Positions 12,819-27,616 of a stretch of DNA of 64,000 nucleotides are shown here, one piece after another. The position numbers were made by a program, and so were the translations under genes. The notes beneath the pieces were generated by a model. That model saw only the letters and a list, made by a program, of their open reading frames with translations. It did no database searches and was not told where the DNA came from. The first letter of the stretch is position 1; every line of letters starts with the position of its first letter. The DNA lies in the IMG/VR virus record IMGVR_UViG_3300002026_000021. The stretch is one strand, 5' to 3'. The stretch is from a virus.

Positions 12819-12831
12819 TAGAAAATATAAT

Positions 12832-13332
12832 AATTCCACGATTAACGTGATATACCTATGATGCTGAAATTTCCTATTGATAGGAGCCTTTATTTCAATC
12901 CACGATTTAACGTGAGGATGTATCTCATTATTGAAATAGGAAAAAAATGAGTAATGGTTGTCTCAATCCACGTTAAATCGTGAGGTAGCAACCTAAAGAA
13001 GTTCTTAAAACCTATTTTGATGTGCTTATTCCAATCCACGATTAACGTGATGTAGCAACAAGGATGTGTATTTTGACATTACTTCATTTTATGGGTTCCA
13101 ATCCACGACAAAGCGTGAGGTAGCAACTGCAACCCGTCATTTGAGTTAGCATGTTTATACAAGTCTCAATCCACGCTTGCGCGTGAGGATACATCCGTAT
13201 GTATACTGATTACGTGACAACCTATCTGTAGTCTCAATCCACGACAAAGCGTGAGGATACATCATAAACGGAACGATTTTGATTGTCGGTGATGAGCTGT
13301 CTCAATCCACGACAAAGCGTGAGGATACATCT
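12832..13332 (-). CRISPR. CRISPR array: 7 well-formed repeats plus 1 degenerate terminal repeat, 7 spacers (~36 bp each), period 68 bp; transcribed on the minus strand from the leader at 13333-13513
   Basis: Repeats begin at 12893, 12961, 13029, 13096, 13164, 13232 and 13300. Consensus on the plus strand is TCTCAATCCACGACAAAGCGTGAGGATACATC; the last two copies are identical. Repeats degenerate towards 12832, the leader-distal (oldest) end. The stems CCACG/CGTG(A)GG are conserved while the loop varies (compensatory pattern). Confidence 0.92.
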
Positions 13333-13513
13333 CTATCACTCTTAATTCCTTTATCTACTTAACTTTATTATTCTACTTCCGCGAACCTCATTTACAATAG
13401 ACAATATATAGTATGTCAAAGACCTTAATACTATTATAAATATTTATACTATAACATTTTATTAAACTCCGAGAACCTATTAACTTTTTCTGTTAGCTAT
13501 AGGTTCGCGCTAC
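13333..13513 (-). promoter_or_regulatory. CRISPR leader (AT-rich), with a candidate promoter (TTGACA-N17-TGTAAA, minus strand, near 13395-13425) and a 10-bp inverted repeat (GCGAACCT / AGGTTCGC) at both leader ends
   Basis: About 80% AT; TTGACA read on the minus strand from plus 'tgtcaa' at ~13420; inverted repeats at 13378-13390 and 13500-13513. Confidence 0.45.
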
Positions 13514-13978
13514 TTAGTAAATAAAAAATAACCCAAATCCTAATCGTTTAGACCGACCATACCCTGATACTAACATCTCAGAAAACTTCTTATTATCTTT
13601 TACTTTAATAGTACCAGAAATAAAGTAAGGGTAAAAATAATGATTCTTTTCTCTAATATAAATTGGTTCTTCTTTAGTGATATCACAATTTAGTACTTCA
13701 AAGATATCATTACTATTTAACTTTTCATATACACTATCATGGTCAATAGGTGTCTCAAAATTATCACTACGTTTAACTCCATTAAAACGTAAACAAAAAT
13801 CTAATACATCATTATCATTATACTTAGTTTCTACTTCAATACCTTTAGTACCTTGCTTCTCTGATAATACATAACAAATATTATCAATATCTATCCATAA
13901 TGCTTTTGAATCAAATTTAGCTACTTCCTGATGAGTTAAGTAATACGTTTCTTTCATAGGAACTGAATGTAAATACAT
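13514..13978 (-). CDS. cas6: miniature Cas6/Cas5c-like RAMP endoribonuclease (candidate crRNA-processing enzyme)
   Basis: C-terminal GYGRSKRLGFG matches the RAMP G-rich loop consensus GxGxxxxxGxG; the gene is immediately adjacent to the leader/array on the same strand; only 154 aa. Confidence 0.6.
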   Translation of the reverse strand: MYLHSVPMKETYYLTHQEVAKFDSKALWIDIDNICYVLSEKQGTKGIEVETKYNDNDVLDFCLRFNGVKRSDNFETPIDHDSVYEKLNSNDIFEVLNCDITKEEPIYIREKNHYFYPYFISGTIKVKDNKKFSEMLVSGYGRSKRLGFGLFFIY

Positions 13979-13979
13979 A

Positions 13980-14981
13980 TTATTTCTTCTCCTTTTTCTT
14001 CAATTCTCTTTCCTCTTTTCTAGCTAATATCTGTTCAAATTTATATTTGTTCAGATTAGTCGGTTCAAATGGATAGATATTAGGCTTGAAGTCTTCATAA
14101 ATATCTTCAATACTCTTAATATACACCATACCACCTTCTAATATATTAGCAAATCCTGGCCCATTTGTCAAGTCCTCATAGAACTTATCATCAATAGTTA
14201 ATTCAATATTACCATTAGTATCAATAACAGTAAAAGGGAATAATCCAACTTGACGAGCAACTAAAGGATTTCCATCCTGAGTCATTCCATTCATAGCCTT
14301 TATTATACCATTTTCATTAGGGCCTAAAATTAAATCTCTAAGTGGTTCTTTATATTTAAGTTTCCTTACAGTAATATTATTATCCTGTTCTGTTACTGCC
14401 CGAATATCACTATTACTTTTGTTCTTATTAAGAATAGTAAATATCTTAGCAATAGGAACTGACCTATAATTATCTCCAACATACTTTTTAGCTAATTCTG
14501 TAAATGCTTTTAATTCAGTTTCATTGAAATAATTTAAGAATCTTTCCCAAGTTAATATACCACAATTTACTTGATAAGGAGTATCACCATAAATAATAAT
14601 ATTACTTGATGGGAGCCATTGATTATTCCCTTTTAAATACTTCCTAAATTGAATAGTCATTTTAGTAGGGATAGTTGTTAATGTTATTCTAGCTGTTTTA
14701 GCAGTAGTCAATGCATTTATATCAAACTCTCTTTTAGTCCTATAGATTGCTTTCCTTGAGATAGTTTGCTTATTAGTTAATACACTTAATACGTTTGCCA
14801 TAGTATGAATATCTATATAGGGAGCGTACTCCTTAGTATTAGGAACAAAGGTCTTAAACTCCCTATTATATTTAGAATAAGAATCTTTGGGAATCCTAGA
14901 ACCCTTCATTACTCCTATAAACCCACACTCTTCAAAATGGATAACCTCTGCATTAGTAAATCTTAAAGTAAGTTTTCTCAT
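13980..14981 (-). CDS. cas5: Cas5-like (possibly Cas5/Cas8-substituting) Cascade subunit, 333 aa
   Basis: Position between the Cas7-like gene and the Cas6-like gene; N-terminus MRKLTLRFTNAEV resembles Cas5 N-termini. The assignment rests on context only. Confidence 0.4.
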   Translation of the reverse strand: MRKLTLRFTNAEVIHFEECGFIGVMKGSRIPKDSYSKYNREFKTFVPNTKEYAPYIDIHTMANVLSVLTNKQTISRKAIYRTKREFDINALTTAKTARITLTTIPTKMTIQFRKYLKGNNQWLPSSNIIIYGDTPYQVNCGILTWERFLNYFNETELKAFTELAKKYVGDNYRSVPIAKIFTILNKNKSNSDIRAVTEQDNNITVRKLKYKEPLRDLILGPNENGIIKAMNGMTQDGNPLVARQVGLFPFTVIDTNGNIELTIDDKFYEDLTNGPGFANILEGGMVYIKSIEDIYEDFKPNIYPFEPTNLNKYKFEQILARKEERELKKKEKK

Positions 14982-14995
14982 ATTATTTCCTATTA

Positions 14996-15032
14996 CAAAA
15001 AAAATAGCCTACTATAATAACAGTAGGCTTTT
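14996..15032 (-). terminator. intrinsic-terminator-like hairpin inside the cas operon (between the Cas7-like and Cas5-like genes)
   Basis: Minus strand reads AGCCTACTgttattatAGTAGGCT followed by T8. Confidence 0.6.
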
Positions 15033-15037
15033 AAAAA

Positions 15038-16087
15038 CTATTCAGTTAAACCACGAAGCTTAACATAGAAAGGAAAAGGTTCAATAAAGATTTCCTCAAT
15101 ATCTGTAGTTGTCTCAAGTTTAATAAAGTCATTACTACTAAAAAGATTACTATTCTTAGTAGGATTAGTAATACCCTGATATTCTAATGATGAGGTTTTA
15201 GCATATCCATTATTTCTAGTAATCATAACAGAAGCAATATTATTGAACAAATATTTAATAAGATAATTAATCTGTTCTATAGTTAATAGGATACCAAGCT
15301 GTTCAGCTTTTTCAACTTGATTTGTTCTATAGAAATATCCTGCCTGAGTATTTTTATCAATATCTAACCCAGTATTCTCTTTGAATGAAGCAATAAATAC
15401 ATCAATATTATCAGGAAGTAAACTCATACTTCCAAACCTATCATCCATATCAATAAACATTAAATTCTGAAGATTGATAGCACCTTGGTATTCATAAGTA
15501 ATTTCCCCAACAGTTTCAATAGTAAATATTGCATTATTATCTTTATCCCCATTATTGGAATTAAATAAGAATGATGGAAAAGCATTGTTTGATTGAATTG
15601 CATGAGAAACAGATACTACATTTCCTCTTTTGAGTAAATCATTCTCTTTAAGAATTTCTGTATCTTCAACATTTTCAACTTCTTCAACATTATCAGTATT
15701 TTTTTCCTTCTTATTACTTTTCTCCTTCTTACTATTAGTTTCCATATATCCTCGGAGTAACATCCCTGGATGCCCAATTAGTTTAGCTAAATATTCATTC
15801 TTACCTCTATAGGAACGAATATAATTCGGCATATCCTTTTCAAAGATGCTATGACGAAGGCAATTACTAGAGATAATTATCTTTCCTTTAAGTTCATCTC
15901 CAATCTTTTCCTTAACATGCTTTGCTACTTTAATATTAGTTACTTTCTTATGCTTAACATAAGGAACTTTGAATCCATAAGACTTAGTATAAAAATCTTC
16001 CTCCTCAAAAGGAATTCCTCCATTGTAATTAACAATACCATTACCGTTCATAGTACCCTTAAAGAAAATTGTCTTAACTCCATTCAT
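15038..16087 (-). CDS. cas7: Cas7-like Cascade backbone subunit, 349 aa
   Basis: N-terminal Gly/Asn-rich segment FFKGTMNGNGIVNYNGG resembles the Cas7 (Csd2/Csh2-type) N-terminal motif; position directly after cas3; followed by an intrinsic-terminator-like hairpin. Confidence 0.45.
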   Translation of the reverse strand: MNGVKTIFFKGTMNGNGIVNYNGGIPFEEEDFYTKSYGFKVPYVKHKKVTNIKVAKHVKEKIGDELKGKIIISSNCLRHSIFEKDMPNYIRSYRGKNEYLAKLIGHPGMLLRGYMETNSKKEKSNKKEKNTDNVEEVENVEDTEILKENDLLKRGNVVSVSHAIQSNNAFPSFLFNSNNGDKDNNAIFTIETVGEITYEYQGAINLQNLMFIDMDDRFGSMSLLPDNIDVFIASFKENTGLDIDKNTQAGYFYRTNQVEKAEQLGILLTIEQINYLIKYLFNNIASVMITRNNGYAKTSSLEYQGITNPTKNSNLFSSNDFIKLETTTDIEEIFIEPFPFYVKLRGLTE

Positions 16088-16088
16088 A

Positions 16089-18317
16089 TTATATCTCCTT
16101 AAAATTTAAACCAATTCCAATTTTAGAATCAGTTGATGAACAATACTGATGAAGTAAATCCATAAAAGGAAATTCCTCTATTTTAGATTTATCCACCCAT
16201 TCGTCAATATCATTATCTGTTAACTCCTTTCGTTCATTAAACTTCTTATTTAAGAATCTTTCTAATTTAGAACTATCAACTTCTTTAAGAAAGCGTTCTA
16301 ATCTCTTTCTAGTATATGCAACTTTTTTAGTTTTGTCAATAAAGAAATCTCCTGAATTAACATTTAATTTTGTGAACTCATTATTAGTATTATATACATA
16401 ATAATTATAATTATCAGTACTTGACCTAAGTGACTTTCCTTTCCTAGATTCATCAATTTCATACTTCCTAAAGAAAATAGTATTTGAAGTGTCTTCTCCT
16501 TCTTTTTTAATACTATTAAGATACTCAATAATATTACTTTTATTATCAATATTAAAAGCATTATATAAAGAGTAAAAATCATTAATAGTCAATACTCTAT
16601 CAGCAATATTTTCTTTAAAGAATGTATCTATGATAGGTTTAAAGTTCTTATTATATTTGCCCTTCCATAGATATGCTTCAGAGGAACTACTCTTCATTTC
16701 AGGAGATAAAAACTTAATATCTGTAGTAGTATACTCTCCCCAACGTGAAATTCTTCCTAATCGTTGTAATATAGATTCAAAAGAAAATAAAGTAATTTCC
16801 CCTGATGAATAAGAAACATCCATAGCTTTCTCACCAATGAAAGAAGTAATAAAACTCTTATCGACATTATTCATTGTGTTCTTACCAAAGTACTCATAAA
16901 TCTTAGTAAGTATTTTATATTTATCTTCATCAGTATACCTACTATGTAATAACAAATCTAAATTAGAATTAAGATAATTTTGTTGAACTTGTTTAATTGT
17001 ATTAAAGAAATAAACACATCCTGATTTTTTTTCAGGAGTATATAGTTCATCGATATTCTTTAAAGAACAAGCAAACTTAGTTTTATTAAAAGATTTAAAA
17101 TGTTCATCATTAGAGGGTAGTACATCAATATTAGTTTTATTACTAATAAATAAATTATGATGCCAAGAAGGAGTAGCACTTAATAATAATGTATTACACT
17201 TTATTCTACTAGACCTAATTTGCATTATTCTTAAAAATAAGGAATATAGTCTAGGAGAATCAGATAATGAATGATACTCATCAAAGATAATATTTCTATT
17301 AAACATATTAATAGCATACTCTAGCATATGAGATTTATACAAAGAGAAATAGTAATTGTCAATATTAGTAACAATTATATCAGAGCTATAATTATTGCCT
17401 TCATCTGTTGAACTTACTACGGATGAAGAGAGAAATAATTCCACAGATATATTAATATTATTACATTTGATTTCAGTAAGAATATTATTATATACAGAGG
17501 TAGCAGTATTATTATCTGGACAAACCCAAATAGTCTTTTGTTTATACTTATGAATCCAATATAGACCCATTAGTGTTTTTCCATATCCTGTAGGAGCTTT
17601 TATGATTGCTGTTTTATTTTTAATGCTATCTATAATAGGTTTTTGCTCTGATTCAAATCTGTATTTATAGTCTTCGTTAATAGTAATAGAGAAATCTAAA
17701 TCATTACTACTTTCCTCAATATCTTTTGAAACAAGTCTATCAGCAGTAAATAAAATACTTCTAATAATTAGAGTATCATTAAAATCACCACATTTATAAT
17801 TAAATATGGTTGGGGTAGAGTAATCATTAGTAGAGTCTTTCCTTCTAAAATTAATATACTTCCAGTCTCTTTTTGAGAGAAGCTCTAAATATACTTTTTC
17901 TAGTATCTCTAAGTCCTCACTAGAAATAAAACTCAAAATTTCATTAGCTGAAGAAAAATAATATTTTTCCTTTAATCTTAGAGATACCGTATTATATACA
18001 TATGTACGGTGTGAGAAGTATAAAGAATCTAAAATAGCTCCTTCATCATCAGCTTGTATTTTTTTAATTATAAATGCCCAAGCTACTTCATTATGATGAG
18101 GATATAAGTAATTACTTTTTAATTCTCCTTTTAATTGCTTCTGAAATACAGGAAGAACTTTACCAATATCGTGAAAAAGAGTTACAAATAATACTCGTTC
18201 TCTAGTCTCTTCATCAGAATTAAAATAATTAGAAAAATAATTATCAGCTTTGTTCATAACGGCAAGAGAATGACTTAAAATTGTAGATTCAGAATTCGCT
18301 GGTTGATTTAAATACAT
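16089..18317 (-). CDS. cas3: Cas3 HD-nuclease/SF2-helicase (742 aa, no Cas2 fusion)
   Basis: N-terminal HD domain (LSHSLAV ... VTLFHDIGK); helicase motif I APTGYGKT; motif II FDEYH (DExH); motif III LLLSATPS. Consensus promoter directly upstream at 18355-18383. Confidence 0.85.
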   Translation of the reverse strand: MYLNQPANSESTILSHSLAVMNKADNYFSNYFNSDEETRERVLFVTLFHDIGKVLPVFQKQLKGELKSNYLYPHHNEVAWAFIIKKIQADDEGAILDSLYFSHRTYVYNTVSLRLKEKYYFSSANEILSFISSEDLEILEKVYLELLSKRDWKYINFRRKDSTNDYSTPTIFNYKCGDFNDTLIIRSILFTADRLVSKDIEESSNDLDFSITINEDYKYRFESEQKPIIDSIKNKTAIIKAPTGYGKTLMGLYWIHKYKQKTIWVCPDNNTATSVYNNILTEIKCNNINISVELFLSSSVVSSTDEGNNYSSDIIVTNIDNYYFSLYKSHMLEYAINMFNRNIIFDEYHSLSDSPRLYSLFLRIMQIRSSRIKCNTLLLSATPSWHHNLFISNKTNIDVLPSNDEHFKSFNKTKFACSLKNIDELYTPEKKSGCVYFFNTIKQVQQNYLNSNLDLLLHSRYTDEDKYKILTKIYEYFGKNTMNNVDKSFITSFIGEKAMDVSYSSGEITLFSFESILQRLGRISRWGEYTTTDIKFLSPEMKSSSSEAYLWKGKYNKNFKPIIDTFFKENIADRVLTINDFYSLYNAFNIDNKSNIIEYLNSIKKEGEDTSNTIFFRKYEIDESRKGKSLRSSTDNYNYYVYNTNNEFTKLNVNSGDFFIDKTKKVAYTRKRLERFLKEVDSSKLERFLNKKFNERKELTDNDIDEWVDKSKIEEFPFMDLLHQYCSSTDSKIGIGLNFKEI

Positions 18318-18354
18318 AATACCTTCTTTATTTGCTTAGAGTTTTTAATACTAA

Positions 18355-18383
18355 ATTATATACTATTATTTAAGTTTTGTCAA
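18355..18383 (-). promoter_or_regulatory. sigma70-type promoter for cas3 (TTGACA-N17-TATAAT)
   Basis: Minus strand: TTGACA AAACTTAAATAATAGTA TATAAT. Confidence 0.65.
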
Positions 18384-18555
18384 TATGTTTTATTAAAAAT
18401 ATTAATAAGATTGTTATAGCATACTGGGCAAAGTTCTAATTCTTTAATTTCTGTAACTTGCTTAAAGAAACCAACACCAGTAATTTCAGATAAGCTTAGT
18501 ACTAATAATTCAGAAGCTGTATTACCACAATGGTCACAAGTATAAGTTATTGTTT

Positions 18556-18996
18556 TCATTTGCCTTCCTCCTTGTTAACAACATCAATACTAAGGATATC
18601 ACTTCTACTCAGTTTCAATATACCAAACCCTCTATTACTACCTTGTCCATACTCCCAATTATAATATTCAGATTCACGAGTTCTTAACCAATGTGTTACT
18701 CTTCTAAAAGAATATGGAACAGCTACCATAGAATTAGAATAACTATACTCTTTACCTGATTTTAATGTAATCTTAATATGCCAAAGCTTTTTAGGTACTT
18801 CTTTTAATACTTCCATAGATGGCGCTTCAGGATAAAAGTAGTTTACTTTATTCTTAGGGATATCTATATCCTTATCCTTATTACCTTCTTTAAGTTTTTC
18901 TATTTCATAATTACGTTGATTAAGAATAAAAATAAGAAAGATTATTATTATACCAAAAGCCATAGACAGAATAAAAGGAGCAATAAGATATGTCAT
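18556..18996 (-). CDS. membrane-anchored hypothetical protein (146 aa)
   Basis: N-terminal TM helix LIAPFILSMAFGIIIIFLIFIL. Confidence 0.5.
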   Translation of the reverse strand: MTYLIAPFILSMAFGIIIIFLIFILNQRNYEIEKLKEGNKDKDIDIPKNKVNYFYPEAPSMEVLKEVPKKLWHIKITLKSGKEYSYSNSMVAVPYSFRRVTHWLRTRESEYYNWEYGQGSNRGFGILKLSRSDILSIDVVNKEEGK

Positions 18997-20811: not shown

Positions 20812-20892
20812 TACTAGAGTATATTATATATTTTAATTAATGTCAATAAGATAATAAAAAAAAGCATAGTAAATTAATACTATGCTTTAATA

Positions 20893-20965
20893 TCGGAATG
20901 AGTTGACTCGAACAACCGACTGCCCCGCCCCAAACGGGGAACTCTACCAACTGAGTTACATTCCG
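20893..20965 (-). tRNA. tRNA-Pro (anticodon UGG)
   Basis: Folded by hand: acceptor CGGAATG/CATTCCG, D-arm ACTC-AGTTGGTA-GAGT, anticodon arm CCCCG-TTTGGGG-CGGGG, T-arm GGTTG-TTCGAGT-CAACT. Confidence 0.8.
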
Positions 20966-21159
20966 ATTATTTAATTACAACTAAATTATCTATTAATTCA
21001 TCTGTATCTATTTCTTCGTTCCAGTATTGAATTAATAATTCTTTATTCTTAGCATACTGAAGGAACTTTTTATATGTTTTTCATAGGAAGTTCCATGTGT
21101 TCAGCTTCGGTAAGGATAGAATCTTCATCAAGTTTACGCATTTTAACCTCTTGAGTAAT

Positions 21160-21188
21160 AGTATAGCATATTTAATTAGTATTGTCAA
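21160..21188 (-). promoter_or_regulatory. sigma70-type promoter TTGACA-N17-TATACT
   Basis: Minus strand: TTGACAATACTAATTAAATATGCTATACT. Confidence 0.55.
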
Positions 21189-21294
21189 TAGGTAAAAATA
21201 GAAATAAAATAATAGGAGATGTAGGAGTTGGACCTACTGTGGCAGTTTATAAGACTGCTCCTCAAAACCGTCGAGGACACCTCCAATGTTAACT

Positions 21295-21522
21295 TCAATC
21301 AAATTCTGCTGACTCTAAATTATCTTCCCAACCCTCTCTTTCATCCTCATCCATATCTTCCCAATCACAACCTGTAGGCTCATCAAAATCTTGGTCATCA
21401 GTACTAGGTTCTTTATGAAACTCATTACAGCCACAACCACTACAGGCTAACCAGATTAAATCTGCTTCACTAATAGTACAAGCAAACTCATGAGAACCAC
21501 ATTCATTACAAACCCAGTCCAT
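21295..21522 (-). CDS. Zn-ribbon / acidic protein (75 aa)
   Basis: CNEC ... CSGCGC; acidic C-terminus. Confidence 0.5.
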   Translation of the reverse strand: MDWVCNECGSHEFACTISEADLIWLACSGCGCNEFHKEPSTDDQDFDEPTGCDWEDMDEDEREGWEDNLESAEFD

Positions 21523-21614
21523 AATTATTTAACTCCTAATAAAAACTGACTTAATGAATTATACTACATTAAGTCAGTTTTGTCAATATTGTTACTGATT
21601 ATTATTTGATTCTA

Positions 21615-21690
21615 GTGCTAACTAGAAGGATTTGAACCTTCAACAAGCACGGTCTAAACGTGCGGTGTCTGCATTGCACCATAGTGGCAT
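21615..21690 (-). tRNA. tRNA-like gene (perfect T-arm GAAGG-TTCAAAT-CCTTC and an anticodon-like arm GCACG-TTTAGAC-CGTGC, anticodon UAG); the acceptor and D stems do not fold canonically
   Basis: Consensus promoter at ~21714-21745 lies immediately upstream on the minus strand; I could not close the acceptor stem by hand. Confidence 0.4.
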
Positions 21691-21751
21691 TCACTCTACA
21701 ATAATAGTATATACTAAATAACCAGTATTGTCAATTAAAATCGTAAAAATA

Positions 21752-22144
21752 TTAACCATAAATATCTACAAGAGCTTGTTCACTCATGTAGTTATCACAT
21801 TTCCGTATCTTTGAACCCTCAGTGTAAAATTTTAATTCATCTTTTAAGTATTCAATAAAATGAACAGAAAACTCTGCATCGGAGGATTCTAAAAAATCAT
21901 CATCATAGAACATAAACTCTTCACAATACTCATCAATATTTTCTTCTATCTCTGATAGAGGTTTTTGTAAAATAGTATTTATTTTTGCTATATGATATTC
22001 AAAATACTCCATTACAGACTTAGGTGAGCCAAACCCTCCATCAGAAGTAGCAAAGTGTTTTCCAGATACTATTACATAACCAAAGCTATCTTCTTCATCA
22101 AAATCTTCATATGGACCTAAAACAAACCAAAAGGCATTTTTCAT
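21752..22144 (-). CDS. hypothetical acidic protein (130 aa)
   Basis: ORF in track. Confidence 0.5.
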   Translation of the reverse strand: MKNAFWFVLGPYEDFDEEDSFGYVIVSGKHFATSDGGFGSPKSVMEYFEYHIAKINTILQKPLSEIEENIDEYCEEFMFYDDDFLESSDAEFSVHFIEYLKDELKFYTEGSKIRKCDNYMSEQALVDIYG

Positions 22145-22237
22145 TGGTATCCCCTAATAAAGTTAATCTAAGATTAGTATACTAATAAATTCTTTTCTTG
22201 TCAACTACCTTTTAAGATTATCAACAAGAAAAGAAGC

Positions 22238-23020
22238 TTACTCATAGAAATCTTTAATACCATCATACACATCTTTAATGTAAATCTTTCTAACAATATC
22301 TCTTTTATCAGCACCCCAATCATCATCATAATAATTGTATCTTAAAGACTTTGCTTTATACCATTTGGGCCAAAGATGAGCAGAATTAAATTCTTGATGA
22401 AGCCTTTGGTATTTAGAAACACTTTCATCATCATATACCTTTCTTCTATAAATATAGTTTACTTCTACCTTTTTAGAAAACTTCCATAAAGGTTCTTTAC
22501 AACGATATTCATAGTGTTCTGATAATCTCCAACCAGGAACATCTCTTCTAACCTTATTAAAAAAGGTTTTGAGAGGACAGGGAAGTTTTTCATATTCATT
22601 CTCAGTAAGCTTCTTAAAGCCTAAAGGTGCTTCAACTTTCTTTTCACCTTTTCTAGGCTTTCTTACAAATAATCTTCCTGAATAAGAATAGTTATCAAAG
22701 GTAAAGGAGTTCTTATTAGTACTAGGGTATACTAAAAACTTTCTATCGTAAGAATACTGATGAATAGTAATTAATTCTATTAGTTCTTTAAGTTTAGCCC
22801 CCTCGCTAGTTTTACTAATGTCAGGTCTAACAACTAAATACCGATGATACCCATTAAATATAGGAGGGTTAACATCCACCCATTCATAGTTATCAGTAGA
22901 CATCTTTCTAAAATGACATAAATCTCGTTCTTTTTTAAGAATTAATTTATCTTTATTAAGATATTTTAATCTTAAACCTCTTTTTAAGACTCTTTCTTCT
23001 TTATCCATTTGATTTACCAC
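22238..23020 (-). CDS. hypothetical protein (260 aa)
   Basis: ORF in track. Confidence 0.5.
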   Translation of the reverse strand: MVNQMDKEERVLKRGLRLKYLNKDKLILKKERDLCHFRKMSTDNYEWVDVNPPIFNGYHRYLVVRPDISKTSEGAKLKELIELITIHQYSYDRKFLVYPSTNKNSFTFDNYSYSGRLFVRKPRKGEKKVEAPLGFKKLTENEYEKLPCPLKTFFNKVRRDVPGWRLSEHYEYRCKEPLWKFSKKVEVNYIYRRKVYDDESVSKYQRLHQEFNSAHLWPKWYKAKSLRYNYYDDDWGADKRDIVRKIYIKDVYDGIKDFYE

Positions 23021-23292
23021 CTTACAGCTTAATCATAATGGACCTCCTTAATTAGAAATATAGTGCCGGAACCATGAGTCGCACATGGATATAGGGATTT
23101 TCAGTCCCCCCTTTTACTCTTAAAGTATTCTGGCATATGATTATTTTGAAGTCTGCCTATAGCAGTTTAGCTTTTTACGTTACTTATTACTGGTGCATTA
23201 TCGTCATCAACAGTTAGTAACAACTTCAAAGCCGAATTACGAGGTATCTAGGTACTGCCCCTAGCTCCACGGATTAACAGTCCGTACCCTCA

Positions 23293-23829
23293 CTATGACG
23301 GGCCTATACCTCTTATTTCTTCGTGCAATTCTCTATGACAATTCGCACAAACTAAAATACATTTATCAACTTCCTCTAAACTTCTTTTCAGATTTTTTAT
23401 ATCTCCTGAAGAGATACCAAAATCTTTTTGATTAGAATCTTTATGATGAAATTCTAATGCTGTAACTGATTTTGAATACCCACAAATTTCACATTTCCCA
23501 CCCTTATACTCTACAAGAAACTTTTTTCTTCTTTTTCTAAAATCCTCTATAATTTTAGACTTAGATTTTGCGGGGTCTTTACATAATTTACAAACCCCTG
23601 ATACATTATTGTAACTAATTTCTTTATTACATTTGGAACAAAATCTCTTATCTTTTCTTTTTAAAGAAAGACTTATTTTAGCTTTAACCTCTTCTGTTCT
23701 TTCCCTTTTATTAGCACACGATTGAGAACAAAATCGTGGTATTGGATTCTTTTTTAAAGACCTTTTATCCTTTCTCCAATCTTCTAAAAACTCTTTTTTA
23801 CATTTCTCACAAGTAAACATTGGAACCAC
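23293..23829 (-). CDS. HNH homing endonuclease (Cys-rich, zinc-binding)
   Basis: EFHHKDSNQKD ... LVCANCHRELH is an HNH motif; multiple CxxC pairs; embedded in the tRNA cluster. Confidence 0.7.
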   Translation of the reverse strand: MVPMFTCEKCKKEFLEDWRKDKRSLKKNPIPRFCSQSCANKRERTEEVKAKISLSLKRKDKRFCSKCNKEISYNNVSGVCKLCKDPAKSKSKIIEDFRKRRKKFLVEYKGGKCEICGYSKSVTALEFHHKDSNQKDFGISSGDIKNLKRSLEEVDKCILVCANCHRELHEEIRGIGPS

Positions 23830-23882
23830 CTATATAAGCATATACTTAATTAGTATATCTCATTAAGATAGGTTCAAAAATA

Positions 23883-23970
23883 GGTGACTAATGGGATTCA
23901 AACCCATGATGAAGGCTTTCGCCTTAGTGATTCCACAGACCACTCCAATCGCTCACTCTGGCATAGTCAC
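23883..23970 (-). tRNA. type II (long variable arm) tRNA, isotype uncertain (anticodon loop reads CUGUGGA)
   Basis: Acceptor GTGACTA/TAGTCAC; T-arm ATGGG-TTTGAAT-CCCAT; ~19-nt variable arm. Confidence 0.5.
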
Positions 23971-23971
23971 A

Positions 23972-24044
23972 AGCGGTATATCAGGTTCGAACTGATGACA
24001 ACCAATTTGGAAGACTGGAACTCTACCAACTGAGCTAATACCGC
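23972..24044 (-). tRNA. tRNA-Gly (anticodon UCC)
   Basis: Acceptor GCGGTAT/ATACCGC, D-arm GCTC-AGTTGGTA-GAGT, anticodon arm CCAGT-CTTCCAA-ATTGG, T-arm ATCAG-TTCGAAC-CTGAT. Confidence 0.8.
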
Positions 24045-24053
24045 AAAAAAAAT

Positions 24054-24127
24054 TAGTTCCGGTCAGATTTGAACTGACGATAACCGCATAGAAAGTGCGG
24101 TGGCTTAAACCACTCGCCTACGGAACC
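24054..24127 (-). tRNA. tRNA-Glu (anticodon UUC)
   Basis: Acceptor GGTTCCG/CGGAACT, anticodon arm CCGCA-CTTTCTA-TGCGG, T-arm GTCAG-TTCAAAT-CTGAC. Confidence 0.75.
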
Positions 24128-24223
24128 ATTAAACAATAGCAAGTACTCCCGAAGGGTCTTGCACCCTCACTGTTAGGATTTTGAGTCCTATGCCTCTGCT
24201 TTTGGGCTACGGGAGCGTCCTAG

Positions 24224-24302
24224 CCAAGGTGACAAGATTCGAACTTGCATACTCCAATTACTCGGTTAACGACCGTTTAGAAGACGGTTGAGGTACACCT
24301 TG
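24224..24302 (-). tRNA. tRNA-like gene, isotype undetermined
   Basis: Acceptor CAAGGTG/CACCTTG and T-arm GCAAG-TTCGAAT-CTTGT are clear; the D and anticodon arms were not resolved by hand. Confidence 0.45.
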
Positions 24303-24478
24303 ATACTCTACATCTGGACCGTGTGGGTAGCGACCCCTACGTTAACCTTTTCGGTTAGAGCGGAACCTTCCGTCGGCCCTCAGTTAGTGAATTAAAAAAC
24401 GTAGGACGAGAGCATCTCGGTCCCCTTGCCATCTAGGTCATTTTCTAACTCACTATAACAAGTATATACTAATTATCA

Positions 24479-24772
24479 CTAACTGTCAATAGGTTCAGTA
24501 CCGTTTTTCTGATTAATTCCTAAGAAAGTTTTTAATCCATCAGAAATAGAAGTAGGACTAGCATCAGGGTTATTATCAATATACTCAATAGTTTTCATTA
24601 TCATTGAATAAAATGAATTAACAGCTTCATTCATACTAACCATCTGTTTAATAGCTTCATCAGGTTTCTCTTTAACTAACTCAGTAACAGTATCTATCAA
24701 TGATTTAGGTTTAGGCATAAAGTCTGACTCTAATACCTTTCCTGAAGGAAATTCAATAACTGTTGCTGGCAA
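24479..24772 (-). CDS. hypothetical protein (97 aa)
   Basis: ORF in track. Confidence 0.5.
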   Translation of the reverse strand: MPATVIEFPSGKVLESDFMPKPKSLIDTVTELVKEKPDEAIKQMVSMNEAVNSFYSMIMKTIEYIDNNPDASPTSISDGLKTFLGINQKNGTEPIDS

Positions 24773-24775
24773 TTT

Positions 24776-25036
24776 TTACTCCTCTAAAGTAGATACTTTA
24801 AATTTATTATCTTCTGACCAATTAAACATTGGTTTATCCTTACACCAGCTTTCTTCTGTTTTAGTTACATTATTTTTACAAACCCATTCATACTTTCTTC
24901 TTCCATATTTATCAATTCCACCTATATCTTGAGCATAGAAGCATTTTCTATTAGGACAATTTGAATCATACACATAAATATCTTTTTCTTTTACTAGTGG
25001 ATACCATTTGTTGTCTTTTTCTAATTTTAATTTCAT
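24776..25036 (-). CDS. hypothetical protein (86 aa)
   Basis: ORF in track; tandem palindromic repeats immediately upstream. Confidence 0.5.
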   Translation of the reverse strand: MKLKLEKDNKWYPLVKEKDIYVYDSNCPNRKCFYAQDIGGIDKYGRRKYEWVCKNNVTKTEESWCKDKPMFNWSEDNKFKVSTLEE

Positions 25037-25053
25037 TATAAACTCCTTATATT

Positions 25054-25112
25054 ATACCCTATCAGGTATAATTATTACTAATATAACCAAATTATACCCT
25101 ATCAGGTATAAA
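25054..25112. promoter_or_regulatory. two copies of a 20-bp palindromic element ATTATACCCTATCAGGTATA (candidate operator pair) upstream of ORF 24776-25036
   Basis: Direct repeat at 25054-25073 and 25093-25112; each copy contains the inverted repeat TATACC ... GGTATA. Confidence 0.45.
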
Positions 25113-25176
25113 AACGGGATTAGGGAGAATTGGACTCCCATTATCGGCGTGACAAGCCGACGTAATAACCACTATA
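25105..25176 (-). tRNA. tRNA-Asp (anticodon GUC)
   Basis: Acceptor GGGATTA/TAATCCC, anticodon arm TCGGC-TTGTCAC-GCCGA, T-arm GGGAG-TCCAATT-CTCCC. Confidence 0.75.
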
Positions 25177-25180
25177 CGAT

Positions 25181-25267
25181 AATCCCAATAAGCAGGAAGT
25201 TGGATTTGAACCAACGCGAAGGTTTCCCTTACTAGCTTACAAGGCTAGTCTAATCGGCCAGACTATA
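25181..25267 (-). tRNA. tRNA-Tyr (anticodon GUA), type II
   Basis: Acceptor GCAGGAA/TTCCTGC, anticodon arm CTAGC-CTTGTAA-GCTAG, long variable arm, T-arm GTTGG-TTCAAAT-CCAAC. Confidence 0.75.
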
Positions 25268-25283
25268 GGATTCCTGCATTTAC

Positions 25284-25520
25284 TTATTCTAAAAGTTTCT
25301 TAATCTTATATACAGGTAGTGACCCTTCTATCCTACTAGTAATCTTATCATTATCTTTAATAATAATAGTAGGGAATGAAGATATTCCTAATTTAATTAA
25401 AACCTTTTCATCATTTTCTGCATCAAGTTCATGAAAGGGAATTGACTCTTTAACTAAAGCTAACTTTAATGACTTACAAGGTGAACACCATTCTGCTGAA
25501 CAAATAGTTAGTGATTTCAT
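25284..25520 (-). CDS. glutaredoxin/NrdH-like thiol-disulfide redoxin
   Basis: WCSPCK is the CxxC active site near the N-terminus; 78 aa. Confidence 0.6.
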   Translation of the reverse strand: MKSLTICSAEWCSPCKSLKLALVKESIPFHELDAENDEKVLIKLGISSFPTIIIKDNDKITSRIEGSLPVYKIKKLLE

Positions 25521-25720
25521 TGTACTTCCTCATCATCCTCAGTATATTTCGATACCCACATTACTTCATCTTCGTCAATACCAGTTTTTAAACAAGTACC
25601 ATCAGTATTATGAACAACAATATAACCAATTTCTTCTCTAGTTAATAAAAGAGCTAAACTATCATAGGCTATACGTTTAAATACATCTAATTGCTCATCA
25701 TCTTCAATATGTATTTTCAT
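25517..25720 (-). CDS. hypothetical acidic protein (67 aa)
   Basis: ORF in track. Confidence 0.4.
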   Translation of the reverse strand: MKIHIEDDEQLDVFKRIAYDSLALLLTREEIGYIVVHNTDGTCLKTGIDEDEVMWVSKYTEDDEEVQ

Positions 25721-26001
25721 AATCCCTCTTTATACTTACACCCTAAATATATATGACCTTCTTTTTCTAAAACTTTTTCATCAAGACGTTTCCTTACTCC
25801 TGAACCTTCTGGAAAGGAAAGTTCTTCACAGCCCTTATATGGCATTCCAGTAGGATGAGAAAATCTGCTAGGCCAATTTATAGTACCTACTTTCTCTTCA
25901 GGACAAACACATTGATTACTACTACCAAATATTTCATTAGTCCTTTTTTCTCTACTTCTAAACCATTTACAATTAACTATTTTTTCCACCTTATCCTCCA
26001 A
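25717..26001 (-). CDS. hypothetical protein (94 aa)
   Basis: ORF in track. Confidence 0.45.
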   Translation of the reverse strand: MEDKVEKIVNCKWFRSREKRTNEIFGSSNQCVCPEEKVGTINWPSRFSHPTGMPYKGCEELSFPEGSGVRKRLDEKVLEKEGHIYLGCKYKEGL

Positions 26002-26149
26002 AAAAAGAAGTATAGAAGTTTCCTAGACCTTTACCATCAGGCTCATTACGCTCACAAAGGTATTATAGAGCTACTATAACAGCTTTGCTAATCATTGGCA
26101 TGAATCGACCTCACTTCAGAAACTCCCTAGTCGTTATATACTTCTTTAA

Positions 26150-26221
26150 CAGGCCCATAAGGATTCGAACCCTAACAAGCACTTTTGGAGAGTGCCGTGC
26201 TACCGTTAACACCATAGACCT
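26150..26221 (-). tRNA. tRNA-Trp (anticodon CCA)
   Basis: Acceptor AGGTCTA/TGGGCCT (two G-U pairs), U8, D-arm GTGT-TAACGGTA-GCAC, anticodon arm GCACT-CTCCAAA-AGTGC, T-arm TAGGG-TTCGAAT-CCTTA. Confidence 0.7.
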
Positions 26222-26229
26222 AAAATAAA

Positions 26230-26790
26230 GTAGAAGTGAATAACCCTAATGAGGTTATTCTATCGCATGGCACTCTGAGTATAAATCTATGCATCAATTT
26301 ATACAAGTCAGTAACCATTTGACCACTCTACTTCTTTATATAGCAGGAGAGGGTTCTGCCCCCTCTAGGAAAAATTTATGAGACTTTTCTGTGTCTAACA
26401 CTTCCTGCGACGTACTTAATACAAATTAAAAATAATACCAGTTTAATTAATTACCTAAGATAAACTGGCAAATCTGCTGACTTACGATTCAGACCGATAG
26501 TGAGCTTGTAGTTGCTTAGCATCCACAGAGGCTTTCAGTGTTTTACGTTCCCTTGTACTTCGGGCTAATAATTTATTAAGTTAAATAATCTTAACTACGA
26601 TACTGTAGGTGTTACCTCCCCGCCTTCGAGCTACGGGTTCCGCTTTTCCATATCTCGTCAGGGAACGCTGAGTTTAAAAGCTCAGATTGTGGAGGTGGAG
26701 GGTTATGACCCCTCGTCCGATGTAAACTGACCTTTCGTTTCGTTGGGCATTGCGTCGGCTACGTCTATCATCGTCGAATCAATTCACCCC
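26230..26790. ncRNA. ~560-bp ORF-free, relatively GC-rich, hairpin-dense region; candidate structured RNA(s)
   Basis: No ORF of 60 aa or more on either strand. Contains hairpins such as GTATAAAT...ATTTATAC and GCAGGAGAGGGTTCTGCCCCCTCTAGG, plus minus-strand motifs GGGUGAAUUGAUUCGACG and a T-arm-like GAGGG-GTCATAA-CCCTC. Confidence 0.35.
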
Positions 26791-27066
26791 CAATTTTCTT
26801 TTTCTCTTTAATAGAAATTCTAATAACCTTTTATTAAAGTCATTATTATTATTATACTTTAATGGTTTACTTAAAGTGCTTTTACAAGTACATGGAGTAT
26901 GACCACAACCAGGACATAACCCTTTCTTTAATCGTTCATCTACTTTTGGTGGTCTTCCAAACATAGAATCACAATTTCGATGAAAACAACCAGTACATAA
27001 ATCATAAGACATTACTCCTGATTTCTTAATACCTCTAGGTTTCCTAGCTTTTTTAAAACTATTCAT
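26779..27066 (-). CDS. Cys-rich small protein (95 aa)
   Basis: CTGCFHRNC ... CPGCGHTPCTC. Confidence 0.45.
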   Translation of the reverse strand: MNSFKKARKPRGIKKSGVMSYDLCTGCFHRNCDSMFGRPPKVDERLKKGLCPGCGHTPCTCKSTLSKPLKYNNNNDFNKRLLEFLLKRKRKLGVN

Positions 27067-27295
27067 ATTAATCTCCTAATAGGCGATACTGGTACTGCCC
27101 CAATACTTCTTGTTTATCAGACAAGCTTGCAAAACTTCTACAACAATCACCTAAGCTGTCCCATCATGGATAAAAATAGCTGAGATACACTATTGATTTA
27201 GAACGTTACTCATTTAAGTTCCTTCAATTTGAATTGAACAAATTCCAAGAGTGTCAAAAACTCTGATGCTTCCGTTACACCATGAAGGAATGTAG

Positions 27296-27368
27296 ACCCC
27301 CTGAATGGACTCAAACCATTGCATACTCGATTTGCAGTCGAGCGCATTATCATCTTTGCTACAGAGGG
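27296..27368 (-). tRNA. tRNA-Cys (anticodon GCA)
   Basis: Acceptor CCCTCTG/CAGGGGG, U8-A9, anticodon arm CTCGA-CTGCAAA-TCGAG, T-arm AATGG-TTTGAGT-CCATT. Confidence 0.7.
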
Positions 27369-27437
27369 TTGAAAAATATATAGTATGTCAAATAACTATT
27401 ATTAAACAATAAACTTAATTATTGTTTCTATTAAGTA

Positions 27438-27528: not shown

Positions 27529-27533
27529 AAATA

Positions 27534-27614: not shown

Positions 27615-27616
27615 AT

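What the first reader, a model, noticed from the sequence alone, without database searches (positions are those of the whole stretch)
12832..18383. Phage-borne, adaptation-less, ultra-compact type I CRISPR-Cas system (cas3 + three small effector genes + array)
A single leftward operon driven by a consensus promoter (18355-18383) encodes four proteins. The first is a bona fide Cas3 of 742 aa: an HD domain (LSHSLAV, LFHDIGK) followed by SF2 helicase motifs (APTGYGKT, FDEYH, LLLSATPS), with no Cas2 fusion. Three small proteins follow, of 349, 333 and 154 aa. The 349-aa protein has a Cas7-like Gly/Asn-rich N-terminus. The 154-aa protein ends in a textbook RAMP G-rich loop (GYGRSKRLGFG) and sits directly next to the leader and array. 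I found no Cas8 large subunit, no Cas11, and no cas1, cas2 or cas4 anywhere in the window. The three effectors total ~836 aa, far smaller than canonical Cascade. The gene order and sizes resemble the minimal I-Fv (I-F2) layout (cas3-cas7fv-cas5fv-cas6f). The 32-bp repeat, however, is of the I-B/I-C kind, ending in ...CGUGGAUUGAGAC with an 8-nt tag AUUGAGAC. That hybrid picture fits neither subtype, so this may be an undescribed miniature type I variant. The genome is otherwise clearly viral: structural genes, a lytic transglycosylase, a tRNA cluster and nucleotide-metabolism genes. The system is therefore probably used by the phage against competing mobile elements or host defences.
Basis: partly seen in the sequence, partly recalled or inferred. 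Interest (0 to 1): 0.93.

Follow-up and report, generated by a model that had tools for sequence, protein, structure and literature searches.

The report
Phage-borne minimal type I CRISPR-Cas system
A phage-like genome fragment carries an intact four-gene CRISPR-Cas interference system with no spacer-acquisition genes: a divergent relative of the minimal type I-F2 system that uses an unusually small Cas6e-type RNA-processing enzyme, and one member of a little-described, mostly phage-borne family.

Summary
One leftward operon (window 13514-18317) sits behind a perfect sigma-70 consensus promoter. It encodes a stand-alone HD-helicase Cas3 (742 aa), a Cas7fv-like protein (349 aa), a Cas5fv-like protein (333 aa, assigned by predicted fold and gene position only) and a 154-aa miniaturised Cas6e-type endoribonuclease. 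A conserved leader and an 8-repeat array (33-nt repeats, 34-35-nt spacers) follow. I found no Cas1, Cas2, Cas4, Cas8 or Cas11 in the window or in the ~5.1 kb beyond the window start.

Cas3 lacks the Cas2 domain, Cas6 belongs to the Cas6e family rather than Cas6f, the repeat differs, and the Cas7 score falls below the NCBIfam cut-off. The Cascade is not smaller than canonical I-F2 (836 vs 866 aa).

The same four-gene, adaptation-less module occurs in 15 IMG/VR viral contigs of 4.8-597 kb (12 over 100 kb) and in several metagenome contigs. The mini-Cas6 version is seen in only three loci.

No spacer target was found, so the biological role (competition between mobile elements, or counter-defence) is inferred. 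Adaptation-less phage CRISPR systems are already known as a phenomenon. I rate this a new variant of a known kind, of moderate interest.

The parts
18355..18383 (-). Putative cas operon promoter, TTGACA-17 nt-TATAAT.
   Evidence: It matches the consensus at 12 of 12 positions and lies 37 nt upstream of the cas3 ATG at 18317. Function is inferred, not shown.
16089..18317 (-). cas3: a stand-alone HD nuclease plus SF2 helicase of 742 aa, with no Cas2 domain.
   Evidence: - **Family hits:** PADLOC Cas3fv 5.7e-41; NCBIfam cas3_HD 2e-11, which is above its cut-off, and cas3_core 3.3e-20; Pfam DEAD, ResIII and Cas3-like_C_2.
- **No Cas2 domain:** BLASTP aligns residues 13-589 to residues 120-786 of an A. 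lwoffii Cas2-3, so the N-terminal Cas2 part is absent.
- **Catalytic residues:** the HD residues H16, H49, D50, H75, H103 and D193, Walker A G244/G246/K247, DExH D346/E347/H349, SAT 380-382 and Q518/R522/R525 are invariant in 12 phage orthologues.
15038..16087 (-). Cas7fv-like backbone subunit, 349 aa.
   Evidence: - NCBIfam NF040577 (Cas7fv) E = 1.8e-20, but 73.5 bits is below the 200-bit cut-off.
- PADLOC Cas7fv 2.6e-18.
- PDB 5o6u_C Cas7fv 1.6e-10 and 9g44_F.
- The precomputed Pfam assignment is PF28157, Cas7fv-like.
- hhalign probability 99.4%, E = 1.6e-21, against the annotated Cas7fv of A. lwoffii.
15006..15029 (-). Terminator-like hairpin followed by a T-run, in the 56-nt gap between cas7 and cas5.
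   Evidence: One search reports a 10-bp stem followed by ATTTTTTTTG. A role as an attenuator that raises the Cas7:Cas5 ratio is inference only.
13980..14981 (-). Cas5fv-like subunit, 333 aa. It is the presumed 5'-handle binder and PAM reader.
   Evidence: - **No sequence match:** nothing in Pfam, NCBIfam or PADLOC, and no hhalign similarity to an annotated Cas5fv.
- **Helical insert:** the model has a helical insert at about residues 145-219 between the RRM strands.
- **Relatives and synteny:** an exhaustive HMMER search found 10 relatives. All whose context could be read sit between a cas7fv-like gene and a cas6 gene.
13514..13978 (-). Miniaturised Cas6e-type pre-crRNA endoribonuclease, 154 aa.
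   Evidence: - Pfam PF08798 at 30.8 bits, above the gathering score of 25. All three orthologues match it, best E = 2.1e-9.
- PADLOC Cas6e 5.3e-8.
- hhalign of the three-sequence profile against E. coli CasE aligns residues 1-152 to 1-195, with probability 85% and E = 6e-6. The invariant H16 aligns with CasE His20.
- Orthologues of 149 and 154 aa in L009 and L011 are 46-47% identical. The G-rich loop GxGRxKRLGFG is invariant.
- There is no similarity to Cas6f.
13332..13513 (-). Leader, containing a conserved hairpin and a conserved -35-like box.
   Evidence: It is about 70% nucleotide-identical to the L009 leader, although the Cas proteins of the two loci are only about 32-47% identical. The motifs AGCGCGAACCT...AGGTTC and AAGGTCTTTGACA are shared.
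12827..13331 (-). CRISPR array of 8 repeats (33 nt) and 7 spacers (34-35 nt). The terminal repeat is degenerate.
   Evidence: The stem UCACG/CGUGG is invariant in all 8 repeats, while the loop takes five different sequences. The stem is followed by an 8-nt tail, AUUGAGAC. There is no match to any Rfam family.

Best explanation
[quoted passage not shown] It derives from the same stock as the minimal type I-F2 (I-Fv) systems.

Proposed mechanism; every step below is inferred from homology and none was shown here:
1. The operon and the array are transcribed leftward.
2. The 154-aa Cas6e-type nuclease, with H16 as its putative catalytic histidine, binds the 5-bp hairpin in each repeat. It cuts at the 3' base of the hairpin, giving crRNAs with an 8-nt 5' handle (AUUGAGAC), a 34-35-nt guide and a 3' hairpin.
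3. One Cas5fv-like subunit caps the 5' handle. Its helical insert takes over PAM reading from the missing Cas8.
4. About six Cas7fv-like subunits coat the guide, and Cas6 stays on the 3' hairpin. This Cas8-less, Cas11-less Cascade forms an R-loop on matching DNA.
5. The complex recruits the stand-alone HD-helicase Cas3, which degrades the target.

With no cas1, cas2 or cas4, the phage cannot add spacers itself. The array is inherited and changes by mutation and recombination. The most likely use is against competing mobile elements or host defence loci during infection.
For: **Intact genes with assignable families**
- Cas3 matches PADLOC Cas3fv at 5.7e-41 and its catalytic residues are invariant in 12 orthologues.
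- Cas7 aligns to Cas7fv.
- Cas5 is assigned by predicted fold.
- Cas6 is of the Cas6e family.

**Same gene order as canonical I-Fv**
- The annotated A. lwoffii plasmid locus reads cas1f, cas2-3, cas7fv, cas5fv, cas6f.

**Selection for function**
- Full-length orthologues of all four genes occur in the same order in L009 and L011 at about 31-47% identity.
- The leader is more conserved than the proteins.
- The repeat stem is invariant while the loop varies.

**No adaptation genes**
- None in the window, in the ~5.1 kb beyond the window start, or in the flanks of seven representative IMG/VR loci. The latter is based on the 25 best of 76 matched families.

**Phage context**
- The window has 15 clustered tRNA genes.
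- PHROG hits include ribonucleotide reductase, family A DNA polymerase, RNA ligase and dNMP kinase.
- The module is found in 15 IMG/VR viral contigs but in only one of 185,579 species-representative genomes.

**Published mechanism of the nearest system**
- I-F2 works without Cas8 or Cas11, and Cas5 reads the PAM through an alpha-helical domain (PMC12956352).
Against: - No protospacer was found for any spacer: not in GenBank phages, PLSDB plasmids, IMG/VR (spacers 1-3), JGI metagenomes (spacer 1), or the window and fetched loci. Neither the target class nor the PAM is known.
- The Cas5 assignment rests on a medium-confidence model (pLDDT 60.5). There is no detectable sequence similarity to Cas5fv.
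- Five of the eight repeats differ from the consensus, so some crRNAs may be poorly processed.
- No capsid or terminase gene was recognised in the window. 'Phage' is therefore a strong inference, not a demonstration.
- Expression, complex formation and interference were not tested.
Confidence: 0.78

Rival explanations
1. The system is a decaying relic. The phage inherited it, but it no longer interferes with anything, because the array is eroding and cannot be renewed.
For: Only the first two repeats are identical. The others carry 5-8 or more substitutions, and the last is barely recognisable. There are no adaptation genes. No spacer has a detectable target.
Against: All four ORFs are full length, and every Cas3 catalytic motif is intact and invariant across 12 orthologues. 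The mini-Cas6 keeps an invariant H16 and G-rich loop in three loci that share only 46-47% identity. The substitutions in the repeats avoid the 10 stem positions in all 8 copies. The leader is conserved at about 70%. Degeneration at the leader-distal end is normal in active arrays (general knowledge).
Confidence: 0.1
2. The system is functional but works together with a host adaptation module. New spacers are added in trans by a host Cas1-Cas2 that recognises the same repeat, as reported for plasmid type IV-A systems and proposed for viral mini-arrays.
For: The review PMC11656645 describes type IV-A systems that use host I-E adaptation machinery, and viral mini-arrays whose repeats are identical to those of the host. 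Arrays of up to 37 or more units occur in related huge-phage loci that have no cas1 or cas2 nearby.
Against: An exact-pattern search for the repeat core (TCCTCACG-N6-CGTGGATTGAGAC) found nothing in 185,579 species-representative genomes. The repeats within this array are heterogeneous, which argues against recent polarised acquisition. The one case of array size variation that I saw (L006 against L007) includes a tandem block duplication, which points to recombination.
Confidence: 0.1
3. The contig is not a phage. It could be a plasmid or a fragment of a low-GC bacterial genome, making this an ordinary cellular or mobile-element I-F2-like locus.
For: No capsid, portal, terminase or tail family was recognised in the window. 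GenBank holds the sequence as an unannotated WGS contig, JFJP01. Canonical I-F2 systems are typically found on plasmids and genomic islands (PMC12956352).
Against: The window holds 15 tRNA genes clustered among short unknown ORFs and long co-directional gene blocks with about 30% GC. Phage-type replication and nucleotide genes are present, and one gene is shared at 41% identity with 172 phage records, mostly of ~175-kb Klebsiella and other enterobacterial phages. The nearest relatives of the cas module lie in IMG/VR viral contigs. Only one hit was found in species-representative genomes, in a Bacteroidetes MAG contig.
Confidence: 0.08

Closest known systems
Type I-F2 (formerly I-Fv) CRISPR-Cas, e.g. 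Shewanella putrefaciens CN-32 (PDB 5O6U, 5O7H, 9G44) and the Acinetobacter lwoffii plasmid NZ_CP046295.1
   Same: - It has no Cas8 and no Cas11.
- The gene order is cas3, cas7, cas5, cas6, then the array.
- Cas7 is homologous: hhalign 99.4% and 5o6u_C at 1.6e-10.
- The predicted Cas5 fold is closest to the Cas5fv chains of 5O6U and 9G44.
- The best profile match for the Cas3 helicase is Cas3fv.
- The Cascade protein total is similar, 836 against 866 aa.
   Different: - It has no cas1.
- Cas3 lacks the Cas2 domain that is fused in Cas2-3f2.
- Cas6 is of the Cas6e family, not Cas6f.
- The repeat is 33 nt with 34-35-nt spacers and an AUUGAGAC tag, against 27-28-nt repeats and 32-nt spacers (PMC12956352).
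- Cas7 scores 73.5 bits against the 200-bit NCBIfam equivalog cut-off.
- Cas5 has no detectable sequence similarity to Cas5fv.
- It is carried by a phage rather than by a plasmid or genomic island.
Phage-borne cas3 / cas7fv-like / cas5fv-like / cas6 modules in IMG/VR viral contigs and metagenome contigs (L003-L007, L013-L028)
   Same: - They share the four-gene, adaptation-less architecture.
- Cas3 is stand-alone, 746-810 aa.
- Cas7 is 25-31% identical, Cas3 23-29%, and the Cas5-like protein is weakly but detectably similar.
   Different: - Most relatives use a 224-254-aa Cas6 of the PF01881 family.
- Most of them have 35-37-nt weakly structured repeats ending in AATCACAAC or a close variant, with a 65-66-nt period.
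- The window, L009 and L011 form a subclade with the 149-154-aa Cas6e-type enzyme. The window has a hairpin repeat.
- L019 has a 175-aa small Cas6 that is distantly related to that subclade.
Vibrio phage ICP1 type I-F CRISPR-Cas
   Same: It is a type I system encoded by a phage and used by the phage itself (PMC11656645).
   Different: ICP1 carries a complete I-F1 system, with the adaptation module and Cas8f, and its target (PLE) is known. The system here has no adaptation genes, no Cas8, and no known target.
Adaptation-less CRISPR-Cas systems of huge phages (Al-Shayeb et al. 2020, PMC7162821)
   Same: [quoted passage not shown] Interference-only loci on phage genomes are thus an established phenomenon.
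   Different: The type I example described there is a I-C variant, with Cas5d-like processing and a different helicase in place of Cas3. I found no description of the I-F2-like clade or of the mini-Cas6e in the papers I could search. I could not read the 2022 Cell survey of virus-encoded systems.
Cas6e (CasE/Cse3) of type I-E
   Same: The 154-aa protein aligns over its full length to E. coli CasE. The N-terminal His motif (YxxxHQ) and the C-terminal G-rich loop are both aligned. The repeat is a hairpin followed by an 8-nt tail, which matches Cas6e-style cleavage products.
   Different: It is about 45 residues shorter (154 against 199 aa), and it is paired with I-F2-type rather than I-E-type Cascade subunits.

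Membership tests
Type I CRISPR-Cas (class 1) | Signature Cas3 with an HD nuclease and an SF2 helicase | tested here: met
   NCBIfam cas3_HD scores 44.3 bits against a cut-off of 43.45, and cas3_core has E = 3.3e-20. PADLOC Cas3fv is 5.7e-41. The catalytic motifs are invariant across 12 orthologues.
Type I CRISPR-Cas (class 1) | Multisubunit effector with Cas7 and Cas5 RAMP proteins, next to a CRISPR array | tested here: met
   Cas7 is assigned by sequence, Cas5 by predicted fold only, and the array is established.
Subtype I-F2 (I-Fv) | [quoted passage not shown] | tested here: met
   The operon is tightly packed with four genes and gaps of 1, 56 and 1 nt. No Cas8 or Cas11 hit appeared among the listed PADLOC matches for the window.
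Subtype I-F2 (I-Fv) | Cas7fv (Cas7f2) as defined by the NCBIfam equivalog NF040577 | tested here: inconclusive
   Homology is clear (E = 1.8e-20; hhalign 99.4%), but 73.5 bits is far below the 200-bit equivalog cut-off. The precomputed Pfam assignment places it in PF28157, 'Cas7fv-like'.
Subtype I-F2 (I-Fv) | Cas5fv (Cas5f2) with an alpha-helical PAM-reading domain | tested here: inconclusive
Subtype I-F2 (I-Fv) | Cas6f (Csy4-type) endoribonuclease | tested here: not met
   hhalign against an annotated Cas6f gives a probability of 0.2%. The protein belongs instead to the Cas6e family.
Subtype I-F2 (I-Fv) | Cas2-Cas3 fusion protein and a cas1f gene | tested here: not met
   The Cas3 alignment starts at residue 120 of Cas2-3, so there is no Cas2 domain. 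No Cas1 was found in the window or in the ~5.1 kb beyond the window start.
Subtype I-F2 (I-Fv) | I-F type repeat of 27-28 nt with 32-nt spacers (PMC12956352) | tested here: not met
   The repeats are 33 nt and the spacers 34-35 nt, with a different sequence and tag.
Cas6e (Pfam PF08798, CRISPR_assoc / CasE) | Score above the Pfam gathering threshold; conserved catalytic His and G-rich loop | tested here: met
   The score is 30.8 bits against a threshold of 25, and all three orthologues match. hhalign aligns H16 with CasE H20 and also aligns the G-rich loop. It falls below the NCBIfam casE_Cse3 equivalog cut-off, 25.5 against 45.2 bits.
Subtype I-C or I-B (suggested by the repeat) | Cas8c or Cas8b, Cas5c-mediated processing (I-C), and a repeat of the I-C/I-B family | tested here: not met
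   There is no Cas8. The best Cas7 and Cas3 matches are I-F variant profiles. No Rfam family matched the repeat. The similarity of the 3' tag to ATTGAAAC rests on my own recollection only.
Phage-encoded CRISPR-Cas | The locus lies on a viral genome | tested here: inconclusive
   The gene content is phage-like, there is a tRNA cluster, and relatives lie in IMG/VR contigs. No virion gene was recognised in the 64-kb window.

The most novel reading that the evidence does not exclude
The window, L009 and L011 represent a distinct, functional, phage-specific variant of type I CRISPR-Cas. It would be a chimera of an I-F2-type Cas8-less and Cas11-less Cascade (Cas7fv-like plus a highly diverged Cas5fv-like subunit), the smallest Cas6 I am aware of (a 149-154-aa Cas6e derivative), and a Cas2-free Cas3. 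That makes about 1,580 aa of protein for a complete DNA-shredding interference module. It would sit inside a larger, so far undescribed, clade of adaptation-less I-F2-like systems of large phages. If active, it would merit its own variant designation and could serve as a very compact type I editing chassis.
Probability: 0.45. Interest if true: 0.68.

Novelty: new variant of a known kind. Interest (0 to 1): 0.58.

Why it matters
It extends the minimal, Cas8-independent I-F2 architecture into phages. It also shows that the architecture tolerates a swap of the crRNA-processing enzyme (Cas6f, PF01881-type Cas6, or a mini Cas6e) and loss of the Cas2 domain of Cas3.

The 149-154-aa Cas6e derivative is of interest for how small a hairpin-specific RNA endonuclease can be. 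The roughly 4.7-kb protein-coding footprint is attractive for engineering.

Biologically, it adds a defined family to the poorly characterised set of interference-only CRISPR systems that phages carry. It also raises the question of how such arrays obtain and keep useful spacers.

Tried and rejected
**Close relatives in cultured phages.** Megablast of the locus, and tblastn of Cas3 and Cas7, against 50,697 GenBank phage records gave no match.

**Word-index protein searches.** For the 333-aa and 154-aa proteins these found only the proteins themselves. The exhaustive HMMER search was needed for the former and synteny for the latter.

**Sequence links from the 333-aa family to Cas5fv.** All were negative:
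- a profile search against PDB sequences;
- PADLOC on all 13 family members;
- hhalign against an annotated Cas5fv.

**Structure of the 154-aa protein.** The single-sequence model was unusable at pLDDT 39.5, so I ran no fold search on it.

**Spacer targets.** I found none in:
- the window and fetched loci, allowing up to 8 mismatches;
- GenBank phages;
- PLSDB plasmids, where the only hit was a chance match at E = 0.9;
- IMG/VR for spacers 1-3, with every sixth base free;
- JGI metagenome contigs for spacer 1.

**Host array with the same repeat.** There was no exact-pattern match in GTDB species representatives.

**More members of the mini-Cas6 subclade.** Searches of IMG/VR and JGI metagenomes with the Cas6 alignment found none.

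**Rfam.** No family matched the array or leader region.

**Idea rejected.** I rejected the claim that the system is smaller than every known Cascade, because canonical I-Fv is the same size.

Full report
**1. The observation**

They are separated by 1, 56 and 1 nt, so the operon has no room for another gene. The quoted Cas3 motifs are all present in the translation.

The site at 18383-18355 is a 12/12 match to TTGACA-17-TATAAT. Promoter-like sites as a class are not enriched in this AT-rich region (39 found, 38.4 expected), so only the perfect score is notable.

Downstream of the 154-aa gene lie a 182-nt leader and an array of eight repeats with a 67-68-nt period. I read 33-nt repeats and 34-35-nt spacers.

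**2. What the proteins are**

*Cas3.* It hits PADLOC Cas3fv (5.7e-41), NCBIfam cas3_HD (above its cut-off) and cas3_core, and Pfam DEAD, ResIII and Cas3-like_C_2. Against the Cas2-3 fusion of a canonical I-Fv locus on an Acinetobacter lwoffii plasmid, it aligns from its residue 13 to residue 120 of the fusion. The Cas2 domain is therefore absent. In an alignment of 12 phage orthologues, the HD residues, Walker A, DExH, SAT and the arginine-finger motifs are invariant and intact in the window protein.

*The 349-aa protein* is a Cas7 of the I-Fv kind:
- NCBIfam NF040577, E = 1.8e-20;
- PDB 5o6u_C (Cas7fv), 1.6e-10;
- hhalign probability 99.4% against the annotated A. lwoffii Cas7fv;
- precomputed Pfam family PF28157, 'Cas7fv-like'.

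Its 73.5 bits are well below the 200-bit equivalog cut-off, so it is a relative and not a canonical member.

*The 333-aa protein* has no hit in any profile library. A profile of its family finds nothing in PDB sequences, in PADLOC or in an annotated Cas5fv. An exhaustive HMMER search of 1.84 billion representatives found only ten relatives.

*The 154-aa protein* passes the Pfam gathering score for PF08798, the CasE/Cse3 family. Syntenic orthologues of 149 and 154 aa in two other loci are 46-47% identical and also match PF08798. A three-sequence profile aligns over its full length to E. coli CasE (residues 1-152 to 1-195, probability 85%, E = 6e-6). The invariant H16 aligns with CasE His20, and the G-rich loops are aligned. 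There is no similarity to Cas6f. It is therefore a Cas6e shortened by about 45 residues. The single-sequence structure model was too poor to use.

**3. The array and leader**

In all eight repeats the ten stem positions (UCACG...CGUGG) are unchanged. The loop has five different sequences, and the 5' segment and the tag also vary. The stem is followed by exactly 8 nt (AUUGAGAC in four repeats). This is the geometry expected for Cas6e-type cleavage at the 3' base of a hairpin.

This pattern argues for selection on Cas6 recognition. The heterogeneity of the repeats argues against recent Cas1-Cas2-driven growth.

The leader is about 70% nucleotide-identical to that of L009, whose Cas proteins are only about 32-47% identical. 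The two leaders share a hairpin directly after cas6 and an AAGGTCTTTGACA box.

No Rfam family matched the region.

**4. Absence of adaptation genes**

PADLOC scans of all window ORFs of at least 70 aa listed only methyltransferase, Cas3, Cas7 and Cas6 models. After removing those genes and adding the ~5.1 kb of the contig beyond the window start (seen in L008), the scan listed SNF2-helicase-type and other unrelated weak hits. No Cas1, Cas2 or Cas4 appeared among the 25 best of 39 matched families, which extend to E = 0.0013.

**5. Context**

The source is a 69.4-69.8-kb metagenome contig: JGI 3300001765 MIS_1001026, also held as GenBank WGS JFJP01.

The window has about 30% GC and long co-directional gene blocks. 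It also has 15 clustered tRNA genes. PHROG hits include ribonucleotide reductase, family A DNA polymerase, RNA ligase, dNMP kinase, phosphoesterases and a methyltransferase. One gene is shared at 41% identity with 172 phage records, mostly of ~175-kb Klebsiella and other enterobacterial phages.

The contig is probably a replication-module fragment of a larger phage genome. 'Phage' is a strong inference, not a demonstration.

**6. Relatives**

Cas7fv-like proteins at 25-31% identity occur in metagenome contigs. They also occur in 15 IMG/VR viral contigs of 4.8-597 kb, 12 of them over 100 kb, but in only one of 185,579 species-representative genomes, a Bacteroidetes MAG contig.

In all representative loci examined that extend far enough, the module is cas3 (746-810 aa, stand-alone), cas7fv-like, a 276-347-aa Cas5-like gene and cas6, in one of two gene orders. 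Most have an adjacent array, the largest with 37 or more repeats. The 10-kb flanks of seven representative IMG/VR loci showed no Cas1, Cas2 or Cas4 among the 25 best of 76 matched PADLOC families.

Most relatives use a 224-254-aa PF01881 Cas6 and 35-37-nt repeats ending in AATCACAAC or a close variant. The window, L009 and L011 form a subclade with the mini Cas6e. L019 has a distantly related 175-aa version. Further searches for the subclade found nothing.

L006 and L007 carry the same locus with 3 and 15 repeats. The longer array contains a tandem block duplication, which suggests change by recombination.

**7. Mechanism**

By homology with I-F2 (PMC12956352, PMC4937334) and with Cas6e, I propose the following:
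1. The mini Cas6e processes the pre-crRNA to an 8-nt-handle crRNA and stays on the 3' hairpin.
2. The Cas5fv-like subunit binds the handle and reads the PAM.
3. About six Cas7fv-like subunits coat the 34-35-nt guide.
4. R-loop formation recruits the HD-helicase Cas3, which shreds the target.

A terminator-like hairpin in the cas7-cas5 gap could raise the Cas7 ratio.

None of these steps was tested here. No protospacer was found for any spacer in any collection I could search. The target class, the PAM and the biological role are therefore inferred from what is known of other phage-borne systems (PMC7162821, PMC11656645).

**8. Comparison and novelty**

Adaptation-less CRISPR-Cas loci on phage genomes are an established phenomenon (PMC7162821). 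I-F2 is a well-studied minimal system.

This locus meets the architectural hallmark of I-F2 (no Cas8 or Cas11; Cas7fv and Cas5fv-type subunits). It fails several defining features: Cas6f, the Cas2-3 fusion, cas1, and the repeat type. It is also not smaller than canonical I-F2 Cascade (836 against 866 aa). Only Cas3 (742 against 985 aa) and Cas6 (154 against 200 aa) are smaller.

I found no description of the phage I-F2-like clade or of the mini Cas6e in the searchable literature. However, I could not read the 2022 Cell survey of virus-encoded systems, and Pfam already has a 'Cas7fv-like' family.

I classify this as a new variant of a known kind, of moderate interest.

Noticed in passing
window 13332-13513 (- strand); L009 8468-8578: The leader is about 70% nucleotide-identical between two loci whose Cas proteins are only about 32-47% identical. 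It holds a conserved hairpin (AGCGCGAACCT...AGGTTC) directly after the cas6 stop codon and a conserved AAGGTCTTTGACA box. In the window, a third arm (GAGGTTCGCGG, about 13383-13373) is a perfect 9-bp complement of the first arm and brackets the putative leader promoter. This could be an operator or a regulatory RNA structure.
   Followed up: partly
window 15006-15029 (- strand): A terminator-like hairpin (10-bp stem followed by a T-run) lies in the 56-nt gap between cas7 and cas5. It may act as an attenuator that sets an excess of Cas7 over Cas5 and Cas6.
   Followed up: no
L006 12075-12270 and L007 12083-13062: The same phage cas locus, recovered from two samples, has 3 repeats in one and 15 in the other. 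In the longer array a block of about five repeat-spacer units appears twice in tandem. This suggests that arrays in this adaptation-less clade change by recombination; an assembly artefact is also possible.
   Followed up: partly
window 18380-18559 (- strand): A 59-aa ORF with two CxxC pairs (zinc-ribbon-like) overlaps the start of the cas operon promoter by 4 nt. Its function is unknown, and a regulatory role is possible.
   Followed up: no
window 20892-27796 (- strand): A cluster of 15 tRNA genes is interspersed with short ORFs. Several of the predicted tRNAs are unusually long (83-95 nt: His, Arg, Thr, Tyr, Ser), which may indicate introns or long variable arms.
   Followed up: no
window 1195-2464 (- strand): A DNA methyltransferase (PADLOC MTase_II, 1.3e-73) lies next to a 177-aa ORF with a weak type II restriction-enzyme hit (1.1e-07). 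This may be a phage-borne restriction-modification pair or an orphan methylase.
   Followed up: no
window 2583-3431 (- strand) and 43819-45867 (+ strand): Two separate ORFs match the PHROG DNA polymerase family phrog_17. One is the 682-aa ORF at 43819-45867. The other I infer to be the 273-aa gene at about window 2583-3404, whose precomputed Pfam hit is DNA_pol_A. The polymerase may be split or duplicated.
   Followed up: no
L020 6034-9935: About 12 consecutive ORFs of 87-120 aa (mostly ~90 aa), possibly paralogous, lie directly upstream of the cas module in a 222-kb IMG/VR phage contig.
   Followed up: no
L003 641-1840 and 2167-3684: A relative's contig carries a TnpB/Cas12f-like gene (OrfB_IS605) and an intein-LAGLIDADG ORF within about 9 kb of its cas7fv-like module.
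   Followed up: no
L009 2801-3439: A DUF3164 protein, a family I recall as typical of Mu-like phages, lies immediately upstream of cas3 in the closest related locus. This hints that the mini-Cas6 subclade also occurs in transposable-phage-like genomes.
   Followed up: no
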